A program made the translations under genes and the position numbers. Shown one piece after another: positions 1-11,267 of a DNA stretch of 11,273 nt. The notes under the pieces were generated by a model. That model was not told the DNA's origin. It ran no database searches and saw only the letters and a program-made list of their open reading frames with translations. Numbering within the stretch: the stretch's first letter is position 1; every line of letters begins with the position of its first letter. Source of the DNA: a virus; the UHGV virus genome UHGV-1977856; one strand, 5' to 3'.

Positions 1-77
1 CAGACACCACTGACCGCGTCATTAATCACGCAATTCCGGCGAGAATGCGGCTATCTGCAAAGTTAAAACTGCATAAA

Positions 78-117
78 AAAATAGAGTCTGTCGACATCCG
101 CCAGACTCTACAGTACA
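78..117 (-). terminator. Rho-independent terminator-like hairpin oriented for the - strand
   Basis: Perfect inverted repeat tagagtctg...cagactcta with an A-run at 78-84 on + (a T-run 3' of the hairpin on the - strand). No T-run follows on the + strand. Lies in the presumed host flank left of the element. Confidence 0.4.
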
Positions 118-386
118 CACAGCAGTGCATCCGCGTCTTAAGTCCGGCATTGTCTCCTCTGCGCCGGTGACTGTGTTATAACGGTTTTAACCTTTAGTTG
201 CCAATTTTCTTCAGTGACAGATTTCACGAAAATATAAGTTACATTATTAATATCGTGATTTTATAAATTAGTGTTTTTTGCTGTTTCATAATGTGCCACG
301 TTGTTCATTATGTTTTTGATTTTTAAGCTCATTGCAATTTTTCTTGTTCCAACTTGTTCCACGTTGTACCCCCTTGTGCAATGATC

Positions 387-411
387 GGTGTAGTTAATGG
401 TGTAGTTAATT
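387..411. repeat. Left terminal direct repeat ggtgtagttaatggtgtagttaatt (tandem 12-mer); candidate integrase arm-type site or att repeat
   Basis: Exact 25-bp match to 11026-11050; extends to 29 bp with one mismatch (ga[t/a]cggtg...). Ends immediately before the int start. Confidence 0.6.
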
Positions 412-1662
412 GTGATGACCGGATTCAAAATTATGAGCAGAGCACTTAACAAACTGAGCGATACACAGCTAAGAAAAATCAACGGCACACCAGCCCCAAA
501 AACCACATTTCTTAATGACGGTGGAAACCTGAGCGTCAGGCATTCCACCAGCGGCTTGTTAACCTGGTATTTCACCTACAGGGCAGGAGCTGGACGCCAG
601 GTATCACCGGAACGCCTGAAGCTGGGAAATTATCCTGATCTGAGCCTGAAAGCAGCCAGGGAAAAAGCGGCACAGTGTCGCGCATGGCTGGCAGAAGGAA
701 AAAATCCACGCCATGAGCTTAATTACTCCATACAGGAAGCACTAAAGCCGGTAACGGTGGGTGATGCGATCAGCTACTGGCTGGAAATGCACGTAAAGGA
801 AAACCGTGTCGATTACGTATGCCTGAAAAGCCGCCTGAATAATCACGTCATACAGCATATTGGCAATATGCCACTGGATAAATGCGAGTTACGTCACTGG
901 CTGGCCTGTTTTGACCGGATACGCAAAAAATCCCCTGTAACGTCTGGTCACATGATGCAGGCGTGTAAACAGGCGCTTAAGTTCTGCCGTAAACGTCGCT
1001 ACGCAGTCAGTAACGTTCTGGATGATCTTAACGTGGTGGACGTTGGCAAAAAACCAGGCATAAGCGAACGCGTGCTGAGCAACAAAGAACTTGGCGAATT
1101 ATTACAGGCGCTGGATAAAAAAATATTCCCGCCCTACTACAGCGCACTAATCCGCCTCCTGATTGTGTTCGGCTGCCGAACCGGAGAACTGAGATTATCG
1201 GAGATCAGGGAGTGGGATTTTAAGGAAATGCTCTGGACAGTACCGAAAGAGCACAGCAAAACGAAGGTCGCCATATTCAGGCCAATACCGGAAAGCATTT
1301 TACCGTTCGTCACGCAGCTGGTGGAGCAGAACAGACACACAGGGCTATTACTCGGGGAACTGAAACAGGAAGCCAGTGTGTCGCAATACGGCAGATTCAT
1401 GCACAAAAAATTAAACCATCCGCACTGGTCACTACACGATATACGGCGCACGTTTACCACGATGCTGAACGATTTAGGCGTGGATCCGCATATTGTCGAA
1501 CAACTCACCGCTCACCAGATGCCAGGGATGCAGCGAGTCTATAACCACTCCCGTTATCTCGATGCGAAACGTAATGCGCTGGACATGTGGACAGAGCGGT
1601 TAGAGATACTGGCGGGTACTCACAAAAACGTAACCACACTGCCAATAGCCAGAGAAATATAA
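412..1662 (+). CDS. int: Tyrosine recombinase / integrase, P4-like family
   Basis: 416-aa ORF. N-terminal arm-binding-like region, and a C-terminal catalytic region (HWSLHDIRRTF ... HSRYLD) consistent with the tyrosine recombinase R..H..R..Y motifs. True start may be ATG 415 or ATG 433 (MSRALNKL...); no strong SD for any. Confidence 0.9.
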   Translation: MMTGFKIMSRALNKLSDTQLRKINGTPAPKTTFLNDGGNLSVRHSTSGLLTWYFTYRAGAGRQVSPERLKLGNYPDLSLKAAREKAAQCRAWLAEGKNPRHELNYSIQEALKPVTVGDAISYWLEMHVKENRVDYVCLKSRLNNHVIQHIGNMPLDKCELRHWLACFDRIRKKSPVTSGHMMQACKQALKFCRKRRYAVSNVLDDLNVVDVGKKPGISERVLSNKELGELLQALDKKIFPPYYSALIRLLIVFGCRTGELRLSEIREWDFKEMLWTVPKEHSKTKVAIFRPIPESILPFVTQLVEQNRHTGLLLGELKQEASVSQYGRFMHKKLNHPHWSLHDIRRTFTTMLNDLGVDPHIVEQLTAHQMPGMQRVYNHSRYLDAKRNALDMWTERLEILAGTHKNVTTLPIAREI

Positions 1663-1687
1663 TTTTTTTTGCGATTTTTTAGAACTG

Positions 1688-1745
1688 ACACAACGTGAAA
1701 CAACGAGACACCACGACGAACAACGGCGAACAATCTGGAACAAAC
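1688..1745 (+). promoter_or_regulatory. 10-bp-phased array of CAACG / GGAACAA motifs downstream of int
   Basis: cacaacgtga aacaacgaga caccacgacg aacaacggcg aacaatctgg aacaaac: core recurs at exactly 10-bp spacing about 6 times. The inverse motif (ccacgttgt, cttgttcc) occurs at 296-304, 343-350, 353-360 and 359-367 upstream of int. Confidence 0.45.
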
Positions 1746-2029
1746 TTGATTAACATCTGACTGACACCCTAAAAAGTTGATTTTCAGTCGTTTTACTGGC
1801 TTTTTGTACATTGGCGAATCACTCTTAAAAACATGTAAAAAAGGCGTAAAAACAGAATTTTATGCCTTTGCACCACAATGAATTAAAAGAGTTTTTATTC
1901 TCATTACCACACTTCTGTAAAATGACCGCCGCCAGTGTTTGCCATTCCATAAACACCCTGACACAATCCGACGCACCACAACACAATAGGACACCAAATA
2001 ACTCTTTAAGAAATATCAAAGGGGGAATT

Positions 2030-2218
2030 GTGTTAAGCACAGATCGCTTTATACGTGAAAAAGAATGTCAGCAACTTACAGGCCTGAGCCGTTCATGTCG
2101 GTACCGCCTGGAAAAAACCGGACAATTCCCATCACGGCGTAAGCTCGGCGGTCGTTCCGTTGGCTGGTCTTTATCCGAAGTTCTGGCATGGAAGGAAAGC
2201 TGTGAGGCAGTTCACTAA
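2030..2218 (+). CDS. alpA: AlpA-family (MerR-like HTH / excisionase-type) transcriptional regulator
   Basis: GTG start at 2030 preceded by SD aagggggaa. 62-aa product VLSTDRFIREKECQQLTGLSRSCRYRLEKTGQFPSRRKLGGRSVGWSLSEVLAWK resembles the AlpA pattern (..G.SR.T.Y......FP.....G.RSVGW...E...W). The N-terminal extension from 1862 in the ORF track looks non-protein-like. Confidence 0.7.
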   Translation: MLSTDRFIREKECQQLTGLSRSCRYRLEKTGQFPSRRKLGGRSVGWSLSEVLAWKESCEAVH

Positions 2219-2270: not shown

Positions 2271-3461
2271 ATGAATACTGGATATTCTCCCGAACAAGGG
2301 CGGGGCTTCGTTCGTCCTGAAAAACAGAATCTGCAAAATTTTGCCGAAATTATTCCGGTTATTTCCGGCCTTACTGGCGGGAGTGAAACCAATATTGTTA
2401 ACGCCAGAGCGTTGCAGATGTTTGATGATAAAAAGGGAGTAAATTTAACTTACACCCCTGACGGCAATCAGAATATGAGCATTATCTCTGAGTCAGGTTT
2501 CTACAAACTAATAAAAACAAAAAGCGCCCCGTTGCCGGAGCGCCTTTGTGAACAATTAACCTACTGCGCAAAAAATGAATCTGAGCAGTGGGATTATATC
2601 AACCGTGTGGCGAAGCGCCACAATTGCCGGATAACAGGCAAAACAAAGGCCACCCGCTACGGTGGCCCCTCGACACAAGCTACACGTTATCCCCAACGCA
2701 TGAGCATCACCAACAATGCCACATTTGCGGCTGGTGGGCAATGTGATCAGTCAGATTTGGTTCGTTCCAAGGTTTGCAACGAGAGCTTTTTCCTGTGCTC
2801 TTTAAGGAATTTCTCAAGAGCAAAAGCACATGGCGCGAATCTTTCTGATTCATGCTCTATCTTTCTGCGCCGTCTTTTCCGTGCCGGTGATAATGTTTTG
2901 GTCAATTCTTTATCGGTCATTGTGTTGTCCTGCATAGCAATGCGCCGTAATACCTTACACCACGGCGCTGATGGTGATTACTCTGGTTCTTTGGTCTTGC
3001 GACGCTGGAGTTCTTCGCGTGCAACGGTGACAAGCTGCCCGATTTCTTCCGCTGCTTTGATGCCGATTTGTTCGACCTTAGCCAGGGCATCCAGTGACGA
3101 CACAAGGGGATTTTCTCCGCTGCCTTCTGCTTGGCGGCGGGCTATTTCTCCGCGCATGGCGGTTACGATAAATCCGGCATTGCTTTCGCCGTCCAGCTTA
3201 ACGGATTCCATCCCTTGCATAACATCTAGTGGGACTCTGACAGTTGTCAGTTGTGATTTTGCGTTTTTGTTAGCCGTTGCCATTTCTGAAACTCCTAATC
3301 ATCGGTGTGTTTCAGTATACACAAAAAAAGAAATACAAAAAGCCTTGACGTGTGTTTCATGCGCTCATAACATGAAACACACCAAAAGAATTGTTGAAAT
3401 ACAAAGAGCAACGCCCCGCAGTGCCGGAAACACATACGGGGCGTCTAACCACCAACGATAG
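2271..3461 (+). CDS. Uncertain ORF: only the N-terminal ~130 codons look protein-like (weak BRO-N/KilA-N-like ESGFYKLI motif); possible pseudogene or read-through artefact
   Basis: Residues after about 2700 are Ser/Cys/Arg-rich low-complexity and lie exactly antisense to two better-supported - strand genes (2747-2920, 2978-3283). No in-frame stop until 3461. Confidence 0.25.
   Translation: MNTGYSPEQGRGFVRPEKQNLQNFAEIIPVISGLTGGSETNIVNARALQMFDDKKGVNLTYTPDGNQNMSIISESGFYKLIKTKSAPLPERLCEQLTYCAKNESEQWDYINRVAKRHNCRITGKTKATRYGGPSTQATRYPQRMSITNNATFAAGGQCDQSDLVRSKVCNESFFLCSLRNFSRAKAHGANLSDSCSIFLRRLFRAGDNVLVNSLSVIVLSCIAMRRNTLHHGADGDYSGSLVLRRWSSSRATVTSCPISSAALMPICSTLARASSDDTRGFSPLPSAWRRAISPRMAVTINPALLSPSSLTDSIPCITSSGTLTVVSCDFAFLLAVAISETPNHRCVSVYTKKEIQKALTCVSCAHNMKHTKRIVEIQRATPRSAGNTYGASNHQR
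2747..2920 (-). CDS. Small basic hypothetical protein (57 aa, MTDKELTKTLSPARKRRRRKIEHE...)
   Basis: Start taken at the internal ATG 2920, which has an SD (AGGA, 7-nt spacing); the ORF-track start 2935 lacks one. Lies downstream of, and co-oriented with, the RHH gene. Confidence 0.45.
   Translation of the reverse strand: MTDKELTKTLSPARKRRRRKIEHESERFAPCAFALEKFLKEHRKKLSLQTLERTKSD
2978..3283 (-). CDS. Ribbon-helix-helix (CopG/Arc-like) DNA-binding protein; candidate repressor of the element
   Basis: 101 aa with a good SD (ttaGGAGtttcagaaATG). N-terminus fits the RHH fold pattern: beta-strand TTVRVP, helix LDVMQGMESVKL, turn DGESNAG, helix FIVTAMRGEIARRQ. Sits divergent to the rightward operon, next to an inverted-repeat operator. 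Confidence 0.6.
   Translation of the reverse strand: MATANKNAKSQLTTVRVPLDVMQGMESVKLDGESNAGFIVTAMRGEIARRQAEGSGENPLVSSLDALAKVEQIGIKAAEEIGQLVTVAREELQRRKTKEPE
3304..3385. promoter_or_regulatory. Divergent promoter/operator region: rightward sigma70-like promoter overlapped by an 11-bp inverted repeat, plus a third half-site near the RHH gene start
   Basis: TTGACG (3345-3350), 17-bp spacer, TAACAT (3368-3373). Inverted repeat tgtgtttcatg (3351-3361) / catgaaacaca (3371-3381). A further tgtgtttca copy lies at 3307-3315. A leftward -10-like TATACT is the reverse complement of 3316-3321. Confidence 0.55.
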
Positions 3462-4339: not shown

Positions 4340-4639
4340 ATGAAAAAGAAAATTTCTGGCTTTACTGCCAGCGGCCCCGCTCGGCCTGAAATCCGCCCCG
4401 GCGATATTTTCCGGGATAACTACGGCGGCACGGTAACGATTAAAAGCGTGGCGGGACGGTGCGTTACTTACCGCCGTGATGGGTACGGTTATGACTGCGT
4501 GATGCCTGTTTATCAGTTCCGGCGTGATTTTTCGCTGGTACAGGCCACACCACGCAGACAGCCCACCAGCAACGCAAAGGCACGGGCAAATATTCAGAAA
4601 ATGAAAAACATGATTAACGCATTCAGGGGCACAAAATGA
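4340..4639 (+). CDS. Hypothetical small protein (99 aa)
   Basis: SD acAGGAAaataaaaccATG; its stop overlaps the rep start (ATGA). Confidence 0.5.
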   Translation: MKKKISGFTASGPARPEIRPGDIFRDNYGGTVTIKSVAGRCVTYRRDGYGYDCVMPVYQFRRDFSLVQATPRRQPTSNAKARANIQKMKNMINAFRGTK

Positions 4640-6051
4640 AATTGGCACCGAACTTAAAAAAACAGCCACACGACAAAATGACCGAAGTCATTATTTTTGC
4701 GGGTAGTGATGCCTGGGCGCACGCGAAACAATGGCAGGAACAGGACGGGCGACTTGCTGGCGACAACGTGCCACCTGTATGGCTTGGAGACAGCCAGCTT
4801 GACGAACTGGCAGACCTGAAAATCATCGATGATGGTCGCTATTGTGTCCGGCTGTACAAGGCAGGCCACATCAAGCCGTCAAATATTAATGCCATCGGGC
4901 AAAAGCTGGCGGCGGCAGGTGTACGGGATGCGAATTATTACCCTGAGGGAATGCACAGCCAGAAGCTGGAGAACTGGCACGACTACCTGCAACGGATCCG
5001 CGAACAGACAGAGCGCGGGGAAATACTTACTGACGAGCAATACAGCCAGCGAAAAACCACGCTACCAATGAGCATTGGATCTGCAGGGTACGACACACAG
5101 CTTGATTATGTCGTTAAGGGCGTGATTCCGGCTAATTCATTGTGCAGCACATACGGCGCGAGCGGTTCCTATAAATCGTTCCTCGCGTGTTCCTGGGCGT
5201 GTCATGTTGCCACGGGTCGCCACTGGGGAGGCCGCAGGGTGGCGCATGGTTCGGTGATGTATGTCGTCGGTGAAGGGGGGATAGGTGTCCCCCGTCGTAT
5301 CAAGGCATGGGAAATCGTTAATGATGAACGGGTGGAAAATCTGTACCTGGTAAACCGCCCGATTTTTCCGGCAGTCCCGCTTGATGTCGATGAAATGGTC
5401 ATCGCTTCCCGCCAGGTTGAACGGGAAACGGGTAAACCGGTACGCATGATTATTCTGGATACGCTGGCGCGTTGCTTTGGCGGTAATGATGAAAATGACG
5501 CGCGGGATATGGGGGCGTTTATCCGTGGATGTGACGAACTGAAACGACGCACAGGGGCCACAGTGCTGGTGGTTCACCATTCCGGCAAGGATGAAACAAA
5601 GGGGGCGCGTGGTTCCAGTGCATTTCGTGCATCTCTGGACGCTGAATACCGTATTCGCCGTGAAGGTGCAGACAGTGAAGCCCTGGTTATCTCCTGCACC
5701 AAAATGAAGGACGCGGAGGAACTGAAAGAGGCTGCATACGATTTACGTGTGGTGGAGCTTTTTACCGACACTGACGGGGAGTTAATCACGTCGCTGGTGG
5801 TTGTGGATAAACCGCGCCCACCCGTTGAACTGGAGCGCATCGAGGAAGCCGGGAACAAGACGGAGAATCATGCCGCGCTATGGGGCTGTATCCGTTCACG
5901 CACACAGCGCGGCGATAAATGCACAATTCCGTTGTTGCGTGATGATATGAAAAAGCTGGGGTATGAGATGAAACACTTCCGGCGCTGGCTGTACAAGCTG
6001 GAAGGTGATGGCGTTATTGCTATTGACGGTGATGACGTGTGCCCACTGTAA
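4636..6051 (+). CDS. Replication initiator / helicase with RecA-like (AAA_25, RepA-like) ATPase domain; N-terminal ~160 aa of unknown function
   Basis: 471 aa. P-loop-like GASGSYKS, Walker B-like MIILDTLARCFGG, and a VVHHSGKD motif typical of RepA-like helicases. Followed directly by an iteron array. No primase motifs recognised by eye. Confidence 0.8.
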   Translation: MKLAPNLKKQPHDKMTEVIIFAGSDAWAHAKQWQEQDGRLAGDNVPPVWLGDSQLDELADLKIIDDGRYCVRLYKAGHIKPSNINAIGQKLAAAGVRDANYYPEGMHSQKLENWHDYLQRIREQTERGEILTDEQYSQRKTTLPMSIGSAGYDTQLDYVVKGVIPANSLCSTYGASGSYKSFLACSWACHVATGRHWGGRRVAHGSVMYVVGEGGIGVPRRIKAWEIVNDERVENLYLVNRPIFPAVPLDVDEMVIASRQVERETGKPVRMIILDTLARCFGGNDENDARDMGAFIRGCDELKRRTGATVLVVHHSGKDETKGARGSSAFRASLDAEYRIRREGADSEALVISCTKMKDAEELKEAAYDLRVVELFTDTDGELITSLVVVDKPRPPVELERIEEAGNKTENHAALWGCIRSRTQRGDKCTIPLLRDDMKKLGYEMKHFRRWLYKLEGDGVIAIDGDDVCPL

Positions 6052-6245
6052 AAAGTGGGTAGTAAAAGTGGGGAGTGTGGGGAATTTAACAAAATTGAAA
6101 CGCGATTCCCCACTTTCCCACCTGTATATACCCCAAAAAGTGGGGAATAAAAATACATTGAAAAACATCACGTTAGAATCACAAAAAAAGAAGTGGGGAG
6201 ATGTTGGGTAATTTCAAAAAGTGGGTAGTAAAAGTGGGGAGCAGT
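6052..6245. repeat. Iteron-type replication origin
   Basis: AAGTGGG(G/T)A(G/A) recurs at 6053, 6066, 6077, 6138, 6191, 6219 and 6232, plus one inverted copy (ttccccactt, 6106-6115). A 24-bp block aaaagtgggtagtaaaagtggggag is duplicated at 6051-6075 and 6217-6241, bracketing an AT-rich core (6150-6190). Confidence 0.7.
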
Positions 6246-6935: not shown

Positions 6936-6960
6936 AAGCCGGAACAATCCGGCTTTTTTA
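6936..6960 (+). terminator. Rho-independent terminator after ssb
   Basis: Hairpin agccgg-aacaat-ccggct followed by tttttta, 15 nt after the ssb stop. Confidence 0.7.
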
Positions 6961-7034
6961 CGGGTCCTCCCGATGGAGTGGCCTTGCCACGGGGCGGGAG
7001 CGGCGCGGAAAAAGGCTGGTTTTTGCATTTTCAT
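6954..7034. repeat. Copy A of a duplicated ~80-bp GC-rich element containing a cosN-like motif
   Basis: Near-identical to 9489-9570; differs only in an internal segment (atggagtggcc versus gtgtggtgtcc). Contains ACGGGGCGGGAGCGGCGCGG at 6989-7008. Confidence 0.75.
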
Positions 7035-9472: not shown

Positions 9473-9495
9473 GGCGGCGACAGCCGCCTTTTTTT
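9473..9495 (+). terminator. Rho-independent terminator after the capsid gene; stem overlaps a lambda cohesive-end-like GGGCGGCGAC
   Basis: Hairpin ggcggc-gaca-gccgcc followed by ttttttt, 8 nt after the stop. Confidence 0.65.
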
Positions 9496-9570
9496 ACGGG
9501 TCCTCCCGGTGTGGTGTCCTTGCCACGGGGCGGGAGCGGCGCGGAAAAAGGCTGGTTTTTGCATTTTCAT
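9489..9570. repeat. Copy B of the duplicated ~80-bp GC-rich element containing a cosN-like motif
   Basis: Matches 6954-7034. Contains ACGGGGCGGGAGCGGCGCGG at 9525-9544. Confidence 0.75.
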
Positions 9571-10493: not shown

Positions 10494-10499
10494 CTTGTG

Positions 10500-10539
10500 G
10501 TGACATACCGTGACGGAGAGTGACACACAGTGACAAAAA
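10500..10539 (+). repeat. Four tandem 10-bp repeats with a GTGAC core
   Basis: gtgacatacc gtgacggaga gtgacacaca gtgacaaaaa, exactly 10-bp period, beginning 7 nt after the stop of the last gene. Confidence 0.55.
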
Positions 10540-11025
10540 AGACGGTATTTAAATCGGGTGGTGTTTAATACCCCCAGGGGGATAGAAATCCCTACACCTC
10601 ATTGCTTATGGGACCGCCCGCCTACCCTTGTTCACATCGCCGCAGGTTCGAAAACTTTTTTTGGGAAGGTGTGCACGGGATTGATAGATGAGGTCTATCT
10701 ATAAAAAATCACAAAATCCGCGCCATTGCTGGATCCGCCAAAAATCCCCCACCTTACGGCAGACAAAGAAAACGCGAATTATGGGCCTGTTGCAGAGAAA
10801 AAAGGTCTCACTAGTTTTGCGCACCCTAGCATCGAGGTTCGTCAGCCTCCCATCAGCAACCAGATAACTAATCTCGCTGGTGGGCATGATGCCGATATGG
10901 GGACTTCCATAACGGTTTATCCGTGATCATCCACCAGCTTCATGGCGGATAGCCGGAAAATGATAACGGTATAGCCCGTCGCTTGTGTCTATTTGTTCCG
11001 CATTGTTGCATACAGTGCACCGAAC

Positions 11026-11050
11026 GGTGTAGTTAATGGTGTAGTTAATT
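11026..11050. repeat. Right terminal direct repeat ggtgtagttaatggtgtagttaatt
   Basis: Exact 25-bp match to 387-411. Confidence 0.6.
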
Positions 11051-11267
11051 TGCGATTTTTAACGTTATTTGCAGCGATGTTTGTTGGTTAAATTCAATAA
11101 GTTATGCGCATTTAATTATAAATATCGTGAATGAATAATCATGCATAAGCATTTTGCTTAAAATATCGGCAATATTTGGAACTTATTACTGGAATTTTGG
11201 GTAATACGTTGTTGGACCGACCCGGTCTGGTTATCATATCGCGCTCTTAATTGCGGGAGGATGTAAC

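What the first reader, a model, noticed from the sequence alone, without database searches (positions are those of the whole stretch)
1688..1745. 10-bp-phased CAACG/GGAACAA array downstream of int, with inverted copies upstream of int
About six motif copies at exactly one helical turn spacing follow the int stop. The reverse-complement motifs (ccacgttgt at 296-304 and 359-367; cttgttcc at 343-350 and 353-360) lie in the int upstream region. Phased arrays on one DNA face are typical of arm-type integrase sites or Xis/AlpA-type recombination directionality factor binding. Their placement on both sides of int, just before alpA, suggests control of int expression or excision.
Basis: seen in the sequence. 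Interest (0 to 1): 0.5.

Follow-up and report, generated by a model that had tools for sequence, protein, structure and literature searches.

The report
Phased AlpA-type operator arrays in PICI
Six short DNA motifs spaced exactly one helical turn apart, between the integrase and alpA genes of an E. coli phage satellite, match arrays in both arms of the satellite's attachment site; they are most likely where its small excision and activator protein AlpA binds, an ordinary kind of element whose location had not been mapped for these satellites.

Summary
Six units of rACAAC at exact 10-bp spacing lie at 1687-1746; 0 of 200 shuffles gave a run of 5 or more.

The window is a capsid-forming PICI satellite inserted between mcaS and smrA. 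The K-12 empty site puts its ends at about 261 and 11131.

The "upstream inverted copies" are part of the P' arm of attP. A third array lies in the P arm at 10980-11019. Each arm array abuts a doubled 12-mer, GGTGTAGTTAAT x2.

The doubled 12-mer changes together with the Int N-terminal arm-binding domain. It has the same layout as the annotated P4 arm repeats, so it is the likely Int arm site. The phased motif does not change with Int.

The array is conserved in PICIs at five chromosomal sites, including EcCICFT073 and an EcCIEDL933-type island. The ACAA core is nearly invariant, the spacers drift, and indels come in 10-bp steps.

AlpA folds like wHTH excisionases. The published AlpA-responsive PalpA fragment contains the whole array.

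Best reading (about 0.6): these are AlpA operator arrays of a dual-purpose directionality factor, as with Apl, Cox, Vis and RdfS. No binding data exist and the controlled promoter is unmapped. It is a new member of a known kind, of moderate interest.

The parts
243..260 (.). attL core identity block ATTATTAATATCGTGA. The crossover lies within about 249-260. The left end of the island is at about 261.
   Evidence: The K-12 empty site reads acattattaatatcgtga|atgaataatcatg. Direct repeat D8 pairs 243-266 with 11115-11138.
268..307 (-). Core-proximal phased array in the P' arm (weak; TGAACAACGT GGCACATTAT GAAACAGCAA AAAACACTAA on the minus strand).
   Evidence: It was not used to train the PWM. 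Its 4-unit phased score is 17.3 against a null 95th percentile of 11.4. The region is conserved in related islands.
341..380 (-). Distal P' arm phased array, four 10-bp units (plus strand: CTTGTTCCAA CTTGTTCCAC GTTGTACCCC CTTGTGCAAT). It abuts the doubled 12-mer.
   Evidence: It is conserved in all related islands, and L010 lacks exactly one 10-bp unit.
387..410 (+). Doubled 12-mer GGTGTAGTTAAT x2: likely Int arm-type sites (P' arm).
   Evidence: only four exact copies in the window, 2 + 2. The TTAAT and TCACT variants follow the Int N-terminal type, not AlpA. The layout matches the annotated P4 arm repeats and the HE-PICI doubled motif.
433..1662 (+). int: tyrosine integrase with an N-terminal Arm-DNA-bind_3 domain.
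   Evidence: Pfam PF13356 at 2.8e-18 and PF00589 at 7.4e-17. RefSeq annotation.
1687..1746 (+). Array A, the finding: six 10-bp units with core ACAA(C), inverted relative to the arm arrays.
   Evidence: Conserved across islands. Phase-specific conservation.
1840..1869 (+). Conserved A/U-rich hairpin followed by UUUG: a possible int terminator or insulator between array A and alpA.
   Evidence: RNA fold -13.2 kcal/mol, z = -3.5. The stem keeps pairing through G-U, G-C and A-U changes among islands.
1939..1967 (+). Predicted alpA promoter (TTGCCA, 17 nt, TG-n-CACAAT).
   Evidence: Consensus scan only. TTTGCCA is invariant in the alignment. Not mapped experimentally.
1960..1999 (+). Array B: four weak phased units (GACACAATCC GACGCACCAC AACACAATAG GACACCAAAT) overlapping the predicted -10 and the 5' leader of alpA.
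   Evidence: It was not used to train the PWM. Phased score 12.2 against a null 95th percentile of 11.4. CAAY recurs at 10-bp spacing in relatives.
2030..2218 (+). alpA: a 62-aa Phage_AlpA winged-helix protein, the candidate binder.
   Evidence: PF05930 at 2.7e-18. Model pLDDT 88. Best folds are the GIsul2 excisionase, RdfS, Pukovnik Xis and TorI. It is 90-100% identical among the ten islands compared.
10980..11019 (-). P arm phased array (plus strand: CTTGTGTCTA TTTGTTCCGC ATTGTTGCAT), three units, abutting the doubled 12-mer.
   Evidence: (D3).
11026..11049 (+). Doubled 12-mer GGTGTAGTTAAT x2 (P arm).
   Evidence: In L008 the P-arm copy carries the same TCACT variant as its P' copy.
11092..11104 (+). 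IHF-like site ATTCAATAAGTTA (one mismatch to WATCAANNNNTTR) between the doubled 12-mer and the core.
   Evidence: Read from the sequence. Relatives have perfect matches such as AATCAATGGCTTG. This is inference, not tested.
11115..11131 (.). attR core identity block ATTATAAATATCGTGA; right end of the island.

Best explanation
The 10-bp-phased ACAA(C) units are operator arrays for AlpA, the island's own small winged-helix protein. AlpA would act as a dual-purpose recombination directionality factor (RDF) and regulator.

AlpA monomers would bind head to tail on one face of the DNA and bend it. This would happen at three places: the P arm, the P' arm (in both cases directly beside the doubled 12-mers that Int's arm-binding domain recognises), and in inverted orientation between int and alpA. 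The arm arrays would help Int assemble the excisive complex. Array A, together with the weak array B over the predicted promoter, would be the cis element for the known AlpA autoactivation of alpA.

Shown here: the arrays exist, are non-random, are conserved with core-specific selection, share one motif, and sit in those positions. AlpA has an excisionase fold. The published AlpA-responsive fragment contains the array.

Inferred: that AlpA is the binder, and how binding about 215-250 bp upstream of the predicted -35 changes transcription.
For: 1. Statistics. The run of six has no equal in 200 shuffles. A phased PWM scan of the 11.3-kb window finds clusters only in the integration module: 1687-1746, 1960-1999, 341-380, 268-307 and 10980-11019.

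2. Conservation. The array is present in islands at five chromosomal sites with 74-93% DNA identity. It is also present in all IMG/VR relatives with Int at least 83% identical.

3. Selection. Mean column entropy is 0.0-0.14 bit at the ACAA core and 0.4-0.7 bit in the spacers. Indels keep the phase: L142 gains 10 bp, and the P' arm of L010 loses 10 bp.

4. attP architecture. Each arm array directly abuts a doubled 12-mer. The 12-mer variant follows the Int N-terminal type. L005 has an Int C-terminal part like the window's and the same AlpA as L006, but the other N-terminal type and the other 12-mer variant. The phased motif is unchanged between these types.

5. Protein. AlpA belongs to PF05930. 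Its model best matches the GIsul2 excisionase (TM 0.85), RdfS, Pukovnik Xis and TorI.

6. Literature on RDFs. RDFs bind tandem repeats one turn apart. Apl has seven operators at pR-pL and five at attP. Vis and TorI bind within att near the int promoter (PMC7498355). RdfS binds 40 bp directly upstream of an IntS arm site and also at its own promoter (PMC11963761).

7. Literature on AlpA. In EcCICFT073, whose AlpA is 97% identical to this one, AlpA activates PalpA and its overexpression causes int-dependent excision without changing Pint (PMC6092414). The PalpA reporter primers map from the int 3' end to alpA codon 19, so that fragment holds the whole array. In PICMI, AlpA is sufficient for excision without transcriptional effects (PMC10803314).

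8. P4. The only genome-wide run of four phased units lies next to the int-proximal doubled arm repeats.
Against: There are no binding data for any PICI AlpA in the papers I could search.

Array A lies about 215-250 bp upstream of the predicted alpA -35, which is far for a conventional activator. The promoter itself is only a consensus match.

There is no clean covariation with AlpA. Relatives whose AlpA recognition helix differs (the ITSISRTSAW type against the LTGLSRSCRY type) still carry YGTTY-type phased units upstream of int.

In the L162 family the array just after int has a different motif (AATATCG x4) from its arms (TTGTTCG), and the window-trained PWM finds no strong inverted array there.

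Relatives with Int about 50% identical lack array A and carry an overlapping gene (iolg-like) in its place.

Arrays in both arms are unusual for a factor that sets directionality. As I recall it, lambda Xis sites lie in one arm only.

AlpA did not affect the published Pint reporter, although arrays lie upstream of int. I could not map that reporter's primers in CFT073.
Confidence: 0.6

Rival explanations
1. The phased units are Int arm-type sites. The integrase N-terminal domain binds them, as at lambda P'1-P'3, and array A is an extra Int-binding cluster that lets Int regulate alpA or loop the int gene.
For: Int carries an Arm-DNA-bind_3 domain. From my own knowledge, lambda arm sites P'1-P'3 are also about 10-bp-spaced direct repeats. 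The arrays flank the core in both arms in direct orientation. The YGTTY motif persists widely across this integrase clade.
Against: The element that changes together with the Int N-terminal domain is the doubled 12-mer, not the phased motif. P4 annotates the equivalent doubled 12-mers as its attP arm repeats, and HE-PICIs have an analogous doubled motif. Array A is about 1.43 kb from the core, outside any usual arm. One small domain is unlikely to recognise two unrelated motifs.
Confidence: 0.13
2. Another protein binds the arrays: a helper-phage product (for example a phage Xis-type excisionase or the still unidentified inducer of alpA) or a host nucleoid protein. Array A is then the sensor through which the helper switches on alpA.
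For: alpA expression is induced by helper phages through a factor that was unknown in 2018, and I found no later identification. Excisionases of the same fold cross-act between a PICI and its helper (PMC11773190). The array lies in the helper-responsive reporter fragment. The motif hardly changes between AlpA clades.
Against: The same motif sits beside Int arm sites in both att arms, which points to a factor dedicated to this element's own recombination. AlpA alone, with no phage, gives both autoactivation and excision. Helpers as different as lambda, phi80 and HK106 would all need a protein with the same specificity.
Confidence: 0.13
3. No dedicated protein is involved. The phased AA-rich units make intrinsically curved DNA (or an RNA-level element in the int 3' UTR) that modulates transcription or termination.
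For: AA dinucleotides recur in helical phase. Array A lies between the int stop codon and a conserved hairpin, so it is probably transcribed with int.
Against: The C within ACAA is as conserved as the A residues (entropy 0.08-0.14 bit), which curvature alone does not require. The same motif occurs in the opposite orientation in regions with a different transcriptional context, which argues against an RNA element. Unit number changes in 10-bp steps.
Confidence: 0.06

Closest known systems
Coliphage 186 Apl and P2 Cox operator arrays (dual-purpose RDF and regulator)
   Same: Short direct repeats 10-11 bp apart, in one array at attP and a second, larger array at a promoter region far from att (Apl: five at attP, seven at pR-pL). 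[quoted passage not shown]
   Different: Apl and Cox are not Phage_AlpA proteins, and they repress face-to-face promoters. Here the reported effect of AlpA on its own promoter is activation. Arrays are in both att arms, and the second array is inverted and about 215-250 bp upstream of the predicted promoter.
Satellite phage P4 Vis and the P4 attP
   Same: Vis is the AlpA homologue of P4 and acts as both excisionase and regulator. P4 attP has doubled 12-bp arm repeats on both sides of the core, with the int-proximal pair preceded by four 10-bp-phased units. This is the same module order as here.
   Different: The motifs differ (TGGGGGCAT doublets and TCCG-type units). vis is not adjacent to int. 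I could not read the Vis footprints, because the primary papers are not in the library. Published work contrasts Vis (excision) with PICI AlpA (induction).
RdfS of ICEMlSymR7A (winged-helix RDF filament)
   Same: The fold is similar to the AlpA model. RdfS binds about 40 bp directly upstream of an Int arm site in attP and also its own promoter, so it couples excision with rdfS and intS expression.
   Different: RdfS has an extra N-terminal helix and no recognisable consensus motif. It represses its own promoter, whereas AlpA activates PalpA.
Doubled motif tgTGTATTGCa x2 of helper-embedded PICIs (Mageeney et al. 2023, PMC10111431)
   Same: A tandem 12-bp doublet occurs once in each attP arm in the same orientation, at fixed distances from the core (-81 and +132). 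Here the doublets start about 100 bp before and about 132 bp after the core centre.
   Different: That paper reports the motif as unique to HE-PICIs and does not describe flanking 10-bp-phased arrays or any array between int and alpA. Here the doublet sequence is GGTGTAGTTAAT, and it is not the subject of the finding.
Lambda Xis sites X1-X1.5-X2
   Same: Head-to-tail winged-helix monomers bind sites one turn apart next to an Int arm site and bend the DNA.
   Different: There are three sites, in one arm only as I recall, and no second array at a promoter.

Membership tests
RDF (excisionase) operator array | Three or more direct repeats spaced one helical turn (10-11 bp) apart | tested here: met
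   Six units in exact 10-bp register at 1687-1746; 0 of 200 shuffles reach five. Four units at 341-380 and three at 10980-11019.
RDF (excisionase) operator array | Sites lie within an att arm next to Int arm-type sites | tested here: inconclusive
   Met for the arm arrays, which abut the doubled 12-mers at 387-410 and 11026-11049. Not met for array A itself, which is about 1.43 kb from the core. Array A fits only the second, promoter-associated array of dual-purpose RDFs.
RDF (excisionase) operator array | A cognate small winged-helix or HTH RDF is encoded by the element | tested here: met
   AlpA matches PF05930. The model has pLDDT 88 and best matches the GIsul2 excisionase (TM 0.85), RdfS, Pukovnik Xis and TorI.
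RDF (excisionase) operator array | The RDF binds the repeats cooperatively and bends the DNA | not testable with these tools
   This needs EMSA, footprinting or ChIP. No such data for a PICI AlpA were found in the library.
RDF (excisionase) operator array | The motif changes together with the RDF across related elements | tested here: inconclusive
   L025 has a different recognition helix (CRMHRYN) and GTAYA units. However, the ITSISRTSAW-type AlpA clade still has YGTTY units, and the L162 family has an AATATCG array after int.
Int arm-type sites of heterobivalent tyrosine integrases | The integrase has an N-terminal arm-binding domain | tested here: met
   PF13356 Arm-DNA-bind_3, residues 8-95, E = 2.8e-18.
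Int arm-type sites of heterobivalent tyrosine integrases | The site sequence follows the variant of the Int arm-binding domain | tested here: not met
   The phased motif is the same in islands with either Int N-terminal type. The doubled 12-mer (TTAAT or TCACT) follows the N-terminal type, including in the mosaic L005.
Int arm-type sites of heterobivalent tyrosine integrases | Sites lie within roughly 150 bp of the core on either side | tested here: not met
   Array A starts about 1.43 kb from the core (243-260). The arm arrays do meet this feature.
Replication-origin iterons | Repeats next to the replication gene and an AT-rich region | tested here: not met
   Array A lies between int and alpA. 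Separate iteron-like repeats, AAAAAGTGGGTAGTAAAAGTGGGGAG, lie at 6050-6241, just after the AAA_25 helicase gene.
Pseudomonas aeruginosa AlpA / ABE (Q-like antiterminator) | A Q-like protein whose HTH residues are about 128-142, and a single 6-bp ABE between -35 and -10 | tested here: not met
   The protein here has 62 aa and an excisionase fold. The P. aeruginosa protein is larger, Q-like, and binds one GGGACG element (PMC9371919). Only the name is shared.

The most novel reading that the evidence does not exclude
Array A is not only an autoregulatory site. It is the cis sensor through which the helper phage induces the satellite. A helper-encoded winged-helix excisionase, which has the same fold as AlpA and is already known to cross-act between a PICI and its helper, would nucleate on the six phased sites and switch on alpA. 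The island would then read 'my helper is excising' directly. A related version: an AlpA filament bridges the inverted array A and the P' arm arrays and loops out the 1.3-kb int gene during excision.
Probability: 0.08. Interest if true: 0.75.

Novelty: new member of a known kind. Interest (0 to 1): 0.42.

Why it matters
Gram-negative PICIs and capsid-forming PICIs are widespread satellites that move virulence and defence genes. AlpA is their master switch, but the papers I could search define neither where AlpA binds nor how helper phages turn alpA on.

The same arrays are present in both laboratory models, EcCICFT073 and an EcCIEDL933-type island. They therefore give a concrete, mutable candidate operator. 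They also give a full attP map: core, IHF-like site, doubled Int arm sites, and phased arrays.

This makes three things directly testable with existing reporters and strains: AlpA binding, autoactivation, and the RDF role in excision. The 12-mer and Int N-terminal module swap also gives a handle on how this integrase clade keeps its arm recognition while changing target sites.

Tried and rejected
1. att site. I first took GGTGTAGTTAAT x2 (387-410 and 11026-11049) for the att core. The K-12 empty site showed that the real junctions are at about 260 and 11131, so these repeats are internal arm elements.

2. tRNA target. There is none in the window. The only Rfam hit is the flanking McaS sRNA.

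3. Pseudomonas AlpA/ABE antitermination as a model. Rejected: that protein is unrelated and Q-like.

4. Origin iterons. Rejected on position; separate iteron-like repeats follow the helicase gene.

5. The L018 relative. It has a GTCAGGA x4 array after int, and I tried to recover its att arms. The ten IMG/VR contigs matching the pattern encode no Int or AlpA relative, so this was a dead end.

6. Covariation of the phased motif with AlpA across distant relatives. Inconclusive.

7. Promoter mapping from consensus scans. The only result is a weak TTGCCA-17-CACAAT candidate for alpA; no convincing int promoter and no promoter next to array A.

8. The published Pint reporter primers. No exact match in the CFT073 stretch I fetched.

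9. The AlpA homologue search returned only 19 proteins because the query is short.

Full report
**What the window is**

The window runs from the end of abgR and the McaS sRNA (73-168, minus strand) to the start of smrA. It carries an inserted island of about 10.9 kb. The E. coli K-12 empty site reads acattattaatatcgtga|atgaataatcatg. This places the junctions at about 260/261 and 11131. The att identity block ATTAT(T/A)AATATCGTGA lies at 243-260 and 11115-11131 (repeat D8).

The island encodes these products:
- int, 433-1662 (Arm-DNA-bind_3 plus Phage_integrase)
- alpA, 2030-2218 (PF05930)
- a DUF4222 protein
- an AAA_25 helicase
- SSB
- a ClpP-protease/major-capsid fusion
- a DUF1441 protein

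That is a capsid-forming PICI-type phage satellite. There is no tRNA gene.

**The observation**

Positions 1687-1746 read GACACAACGT GAAACAACGA GACACCACGA CGAACAACGG CGAACAATCT GGAACAAACT. These are six units in exact 10-bp register.
- Tandem Repeats Finder calls period 10 here.
- A run of six 5-mers with at most one mismatch at period 10 is the longest in the window. In 200 dinucleotide-preserving shuffles the longest run never exceeded four.
They form a four-unit 10-bp array on the other strand at 341-380.
- The motif is not enriched overall. The signal is the phased clustering.

Segment 343-411 is repeated at 10982-11050 (69 nt, 77% identity, D3). Both copies lie inside the island. Each consists of 3-4 phased TTGT(TC) units followed by an exact tandem doublet, GGTGTAGTTAAT x2. 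The window holds only four exact copies of that 12-mer, two in each place.

After circularisation, attP reads in this order:
1. phased units, 10980-11019
2. doublet, 11026-11049
3. IHF-like site, 11092-11104
4. core
5. weak phased units, 268-307
6. phased units, 341-380
7. doublet, 387-410
8. int

I trained a position weight matrix on the obvious units and scored sets of four sites 10 bp apart. It found clusters above the shuffle 95th percentile (11.4) only in this module. The three training arrays scored highest, as expected. Two independent clusters also passed: 268-307 (score 17.3) and 1960-1999 (score 12.2). The second overlaps the predicted alpA promoter.

**Comparative evidence**

The int 3' end to alpA region occurs in 893 of 5426 complete E. 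coli genomes, at 74-100% identity. I fetched islands from five chromosomal sites:
- abgR-smrA
- ygaZ-proX
- roxA-phoQ
- the ilv leader region
- tqsA

The set includes CFT073, and therefore EcCICFT073. Its Int and AlpA accessions are identical to those of L004. It also includes an O157:H7 island of the EcCIEDL933 type.

All of them carry the phased array after int, the same P' arm, and, where the right end was captured, the same P arm. Fifty-one distinct post-int sequences from IMG/VR extend this result.

Across the distinct array variants, mean column entropy is 0.0-0.14 bit at the four ACAA positions and 0.4-0.7 bit in the spacers. Indels keep the register. L142 gains one 10-bp unit. The P' arm of L010 lacks one 10-bp unit. 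A 10-bp deletion in the EcCIEDL933-type leader puts the next ACAAT unit at the -10 position. This is phase-specific, base-specific purifying selection, so the array is a functional DNA element.

**Who binds what**

The doublet comes in two variants, ...GTTAAT and ...GTCACT.
- These follow two variants of the first 100 residues of Int.
- L005 has an Int C-terminal part 98% identical to the window's and an AlpA identical to that of L006. Yet it carries the other N-terminal type and the other doublet.
- In L008 the distant P-arm doublet carries the same variant as its P' doublet.
- P4, whose Int has the same arm-binding domain, is annotated with doubled 12-bp 'attP arm sequence repeats' on both sides of its core.
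- Helper-embedded PICIs have a differently spelled doublet at -81 and +132 (PMC10111431).

The doublets are therefore the likely Int arm sites.

The phased units do not change with the Int N-terminal type. AlpA is 90-100% identical in the ten islands compared. It is the only conserved small DNA-binding protein of the integration module. Its AlphaFold model (pLDDT 88) best matches the GIsul2 excisionase (TM 0.85, 38% identity), RdfS, Pukovnik Xis and TorI.

**Fit to established knowledge**

- RDFs bind head to tail on tandem repeats one turn apart and bend DNA.
- Some RDFs also regulate promoters away from att through similar arrays. Apl has five operators at attP and seven at pR-pL. Cox and Vis are further examples (PMC7498355).
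- RdfS binds 40 bp directly upstream of an IntS arm site and also binds its own promoter (PMC11963761).
- In EcCICFT073, AlpA activates PalpA, does not change Pint, and when overexpressed causes int-dependent excision and replication (PMC6092414).
- The primers of that PalpA reporter map from 33 bp before the int stop codon to alpA codon 19. The AlpA-responsive fragment therefore contains the whole array.
- In PICMI satellites, AlpA is sufficient for excision without transcriptional effects (PMC10803314).
- In P4, the only genome-wide run of four 10-bp-phased units lies beside the int-proximal doublet. This is where the AlpA homologue Vis is reported to act.

**Mechanism proposed**

AlpA monomers polymerise on the phased units. 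At the arm arrays this shapes the arms next to arm-bound Int and promotes excision. At array A, and at array B over the promoter, it mediates autoactivation of alpA.

Shown: the anatomy, the statistics, the conservation, the fold, and the fact that the array lies inside the responsive fragment.

Inferred: the identity of the binder and the way transcription is affected.

**Weak points**

- No binding data exist.
- The alpA promoter is only a consensus match (TTGCCA-17-CACAAT at 1939-1967). Array A lies about 215-250 bp upstream of it.
- A conserved hairpin at 1840-1869 (z = -3.5) lies between array A and alpA. Its role is unknown.
- Covariation with AlpA is inconclusive.
- The L162 family has an AATATCG x4 array after int, but its arms carry TTGTTCG.
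- Relatives with Int about 50% identical replace array A with an overlapping iolg-like gene.
- Arrays in both arms are atypical for a directionality factor.

**Rivals**

- Int arm sites (0.13). Disfavoured by the covariation result and by the 1.43-kb distance from the core.
- A helper-phage or host protein (0.13). Not excluded, because the inducer of alpA is unknown and excisionases cross-act.
- Curvature or an RNA element without a dedicated protein (0.06). Disfavoured by the conserved C in the core and by the motif occurring in both orientations.

**Comparison and novelty**

This works like the Apl, Cox, Vis and RdfS class of dual-purpose RDF operators. It is best filed as a new member of that kind, in Gram-negative PICIs.

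The Pseudomonas 'AlpA' antiterminator is unrelated. I found no paper that describes these phased arrays or an AlpA operator in PICIs.

Interest is moderate. A specialist would not be surprised, but the arrays give a precise, testable handle on AlpA binding and PICI induction in the two model islands.

Noticed in passing
window 387-410 and 11026-11049; Int residues 1-100 (433-732); loci L005-L008: The doubled 12-mer and the first 100 or so residues of Int are exchanged together as one module. L005 pairs a window-type Int C-terminal part (98% identical) with the other N-terminal type and the GTCACT doublet. This suggests recombination that keeps arm site and arm-binding domain matched while target sites change.
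   Followed up: partly
window 6050-6075, 6135-6160, 6216-6241: Iteron-like repeats AAAAAGTGGGTAGTAAAAGTGGGGAG (two exact copies and one degenerate) lie immediately downstream of the AAA_25 helicase gene (4636-6051). This is probably the island's replication origin.
   Followed up: no
window 10499-10538; L008 about 20825-20880: A second 10-bp-phased array with a different motif (GTGAC x4; x5 in L008) follows the last small ORF. It is shared only with the island that has the same ClpP-capsid/DUF1441 packaging module. Islands with other packaging modules have different repeats there (TTGATATTTTCG). It may be a packaging or terminase-recognition site.
   Followed up: partly
window 6954-7034 and 9490-9570: Two copies of an 81-nt segment are 95% identical. 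One lies upstream of the capsid-fusion gene region and one upstream of the DUF1441 gene. On the minus strand each begins with ATG and a short ORF. Function unknown.
   Followed up: no
window 1840-1869: An A/U-rich hairpin (GGCGUAAAA...UUUUAUGCC, then UUUG) is conserved between array A and alpA. Pairing is kept through G-U, G-C and A-U changes among islands. It may be the int terminator or an insulator that keeps alpA silent.
   Followed up: partly
window 2271-3461: A 396-aa ORF directly after alpA has no Pfam match. RefSeq does not annotate it in the identical island (L001), where only a minus-strand YlcI/YnfO gene is called at 2978-3283. Relatives carry truncated 'hypothetical' pseudogenes here.
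   Followed up: no
L173 (phage P4) 3942-3965, 3972-4006, 4151-4174: P4 attP has the same module order as this PICI: four 10-bp-phased units, then a doubled 12-bp arm repeat, then int, with a second doublet in the other arm. The shared design spans P4-like satellites and PICIs.
   Followed up: partly
L162/L164 (IMG/VR) about 40-80 nt after the int stop; L018 1413-1450: Relatives carry phased arrays with other motifs just after int: AATATCG x4 (Int 76% identical) and GTCAGGA x4 (Int 62% identical). L164 appears to hold an intact attP, with a P-arm doublet upstream of the P' arm.
   Followed up: partly
L012, L013, L016, L017, L020-L038: between int and alpA: Most relatives with Int about 50% identical have a 255-300-aa gene overlapping the int stop codon (ATGA or TGA overlap), like the iolg gene that PICMI needs for excision. 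The E. coli family lacks it and has the non-coding region with array A instead.
   Followed up: no
window 73-168 (minus strand): The McaS/IsrA sRNA gene (Rfam, 117.6 bits) lies about 90 bp from the island's left junction. The island is inserted between mcaS and smrA.
   Followed up: no
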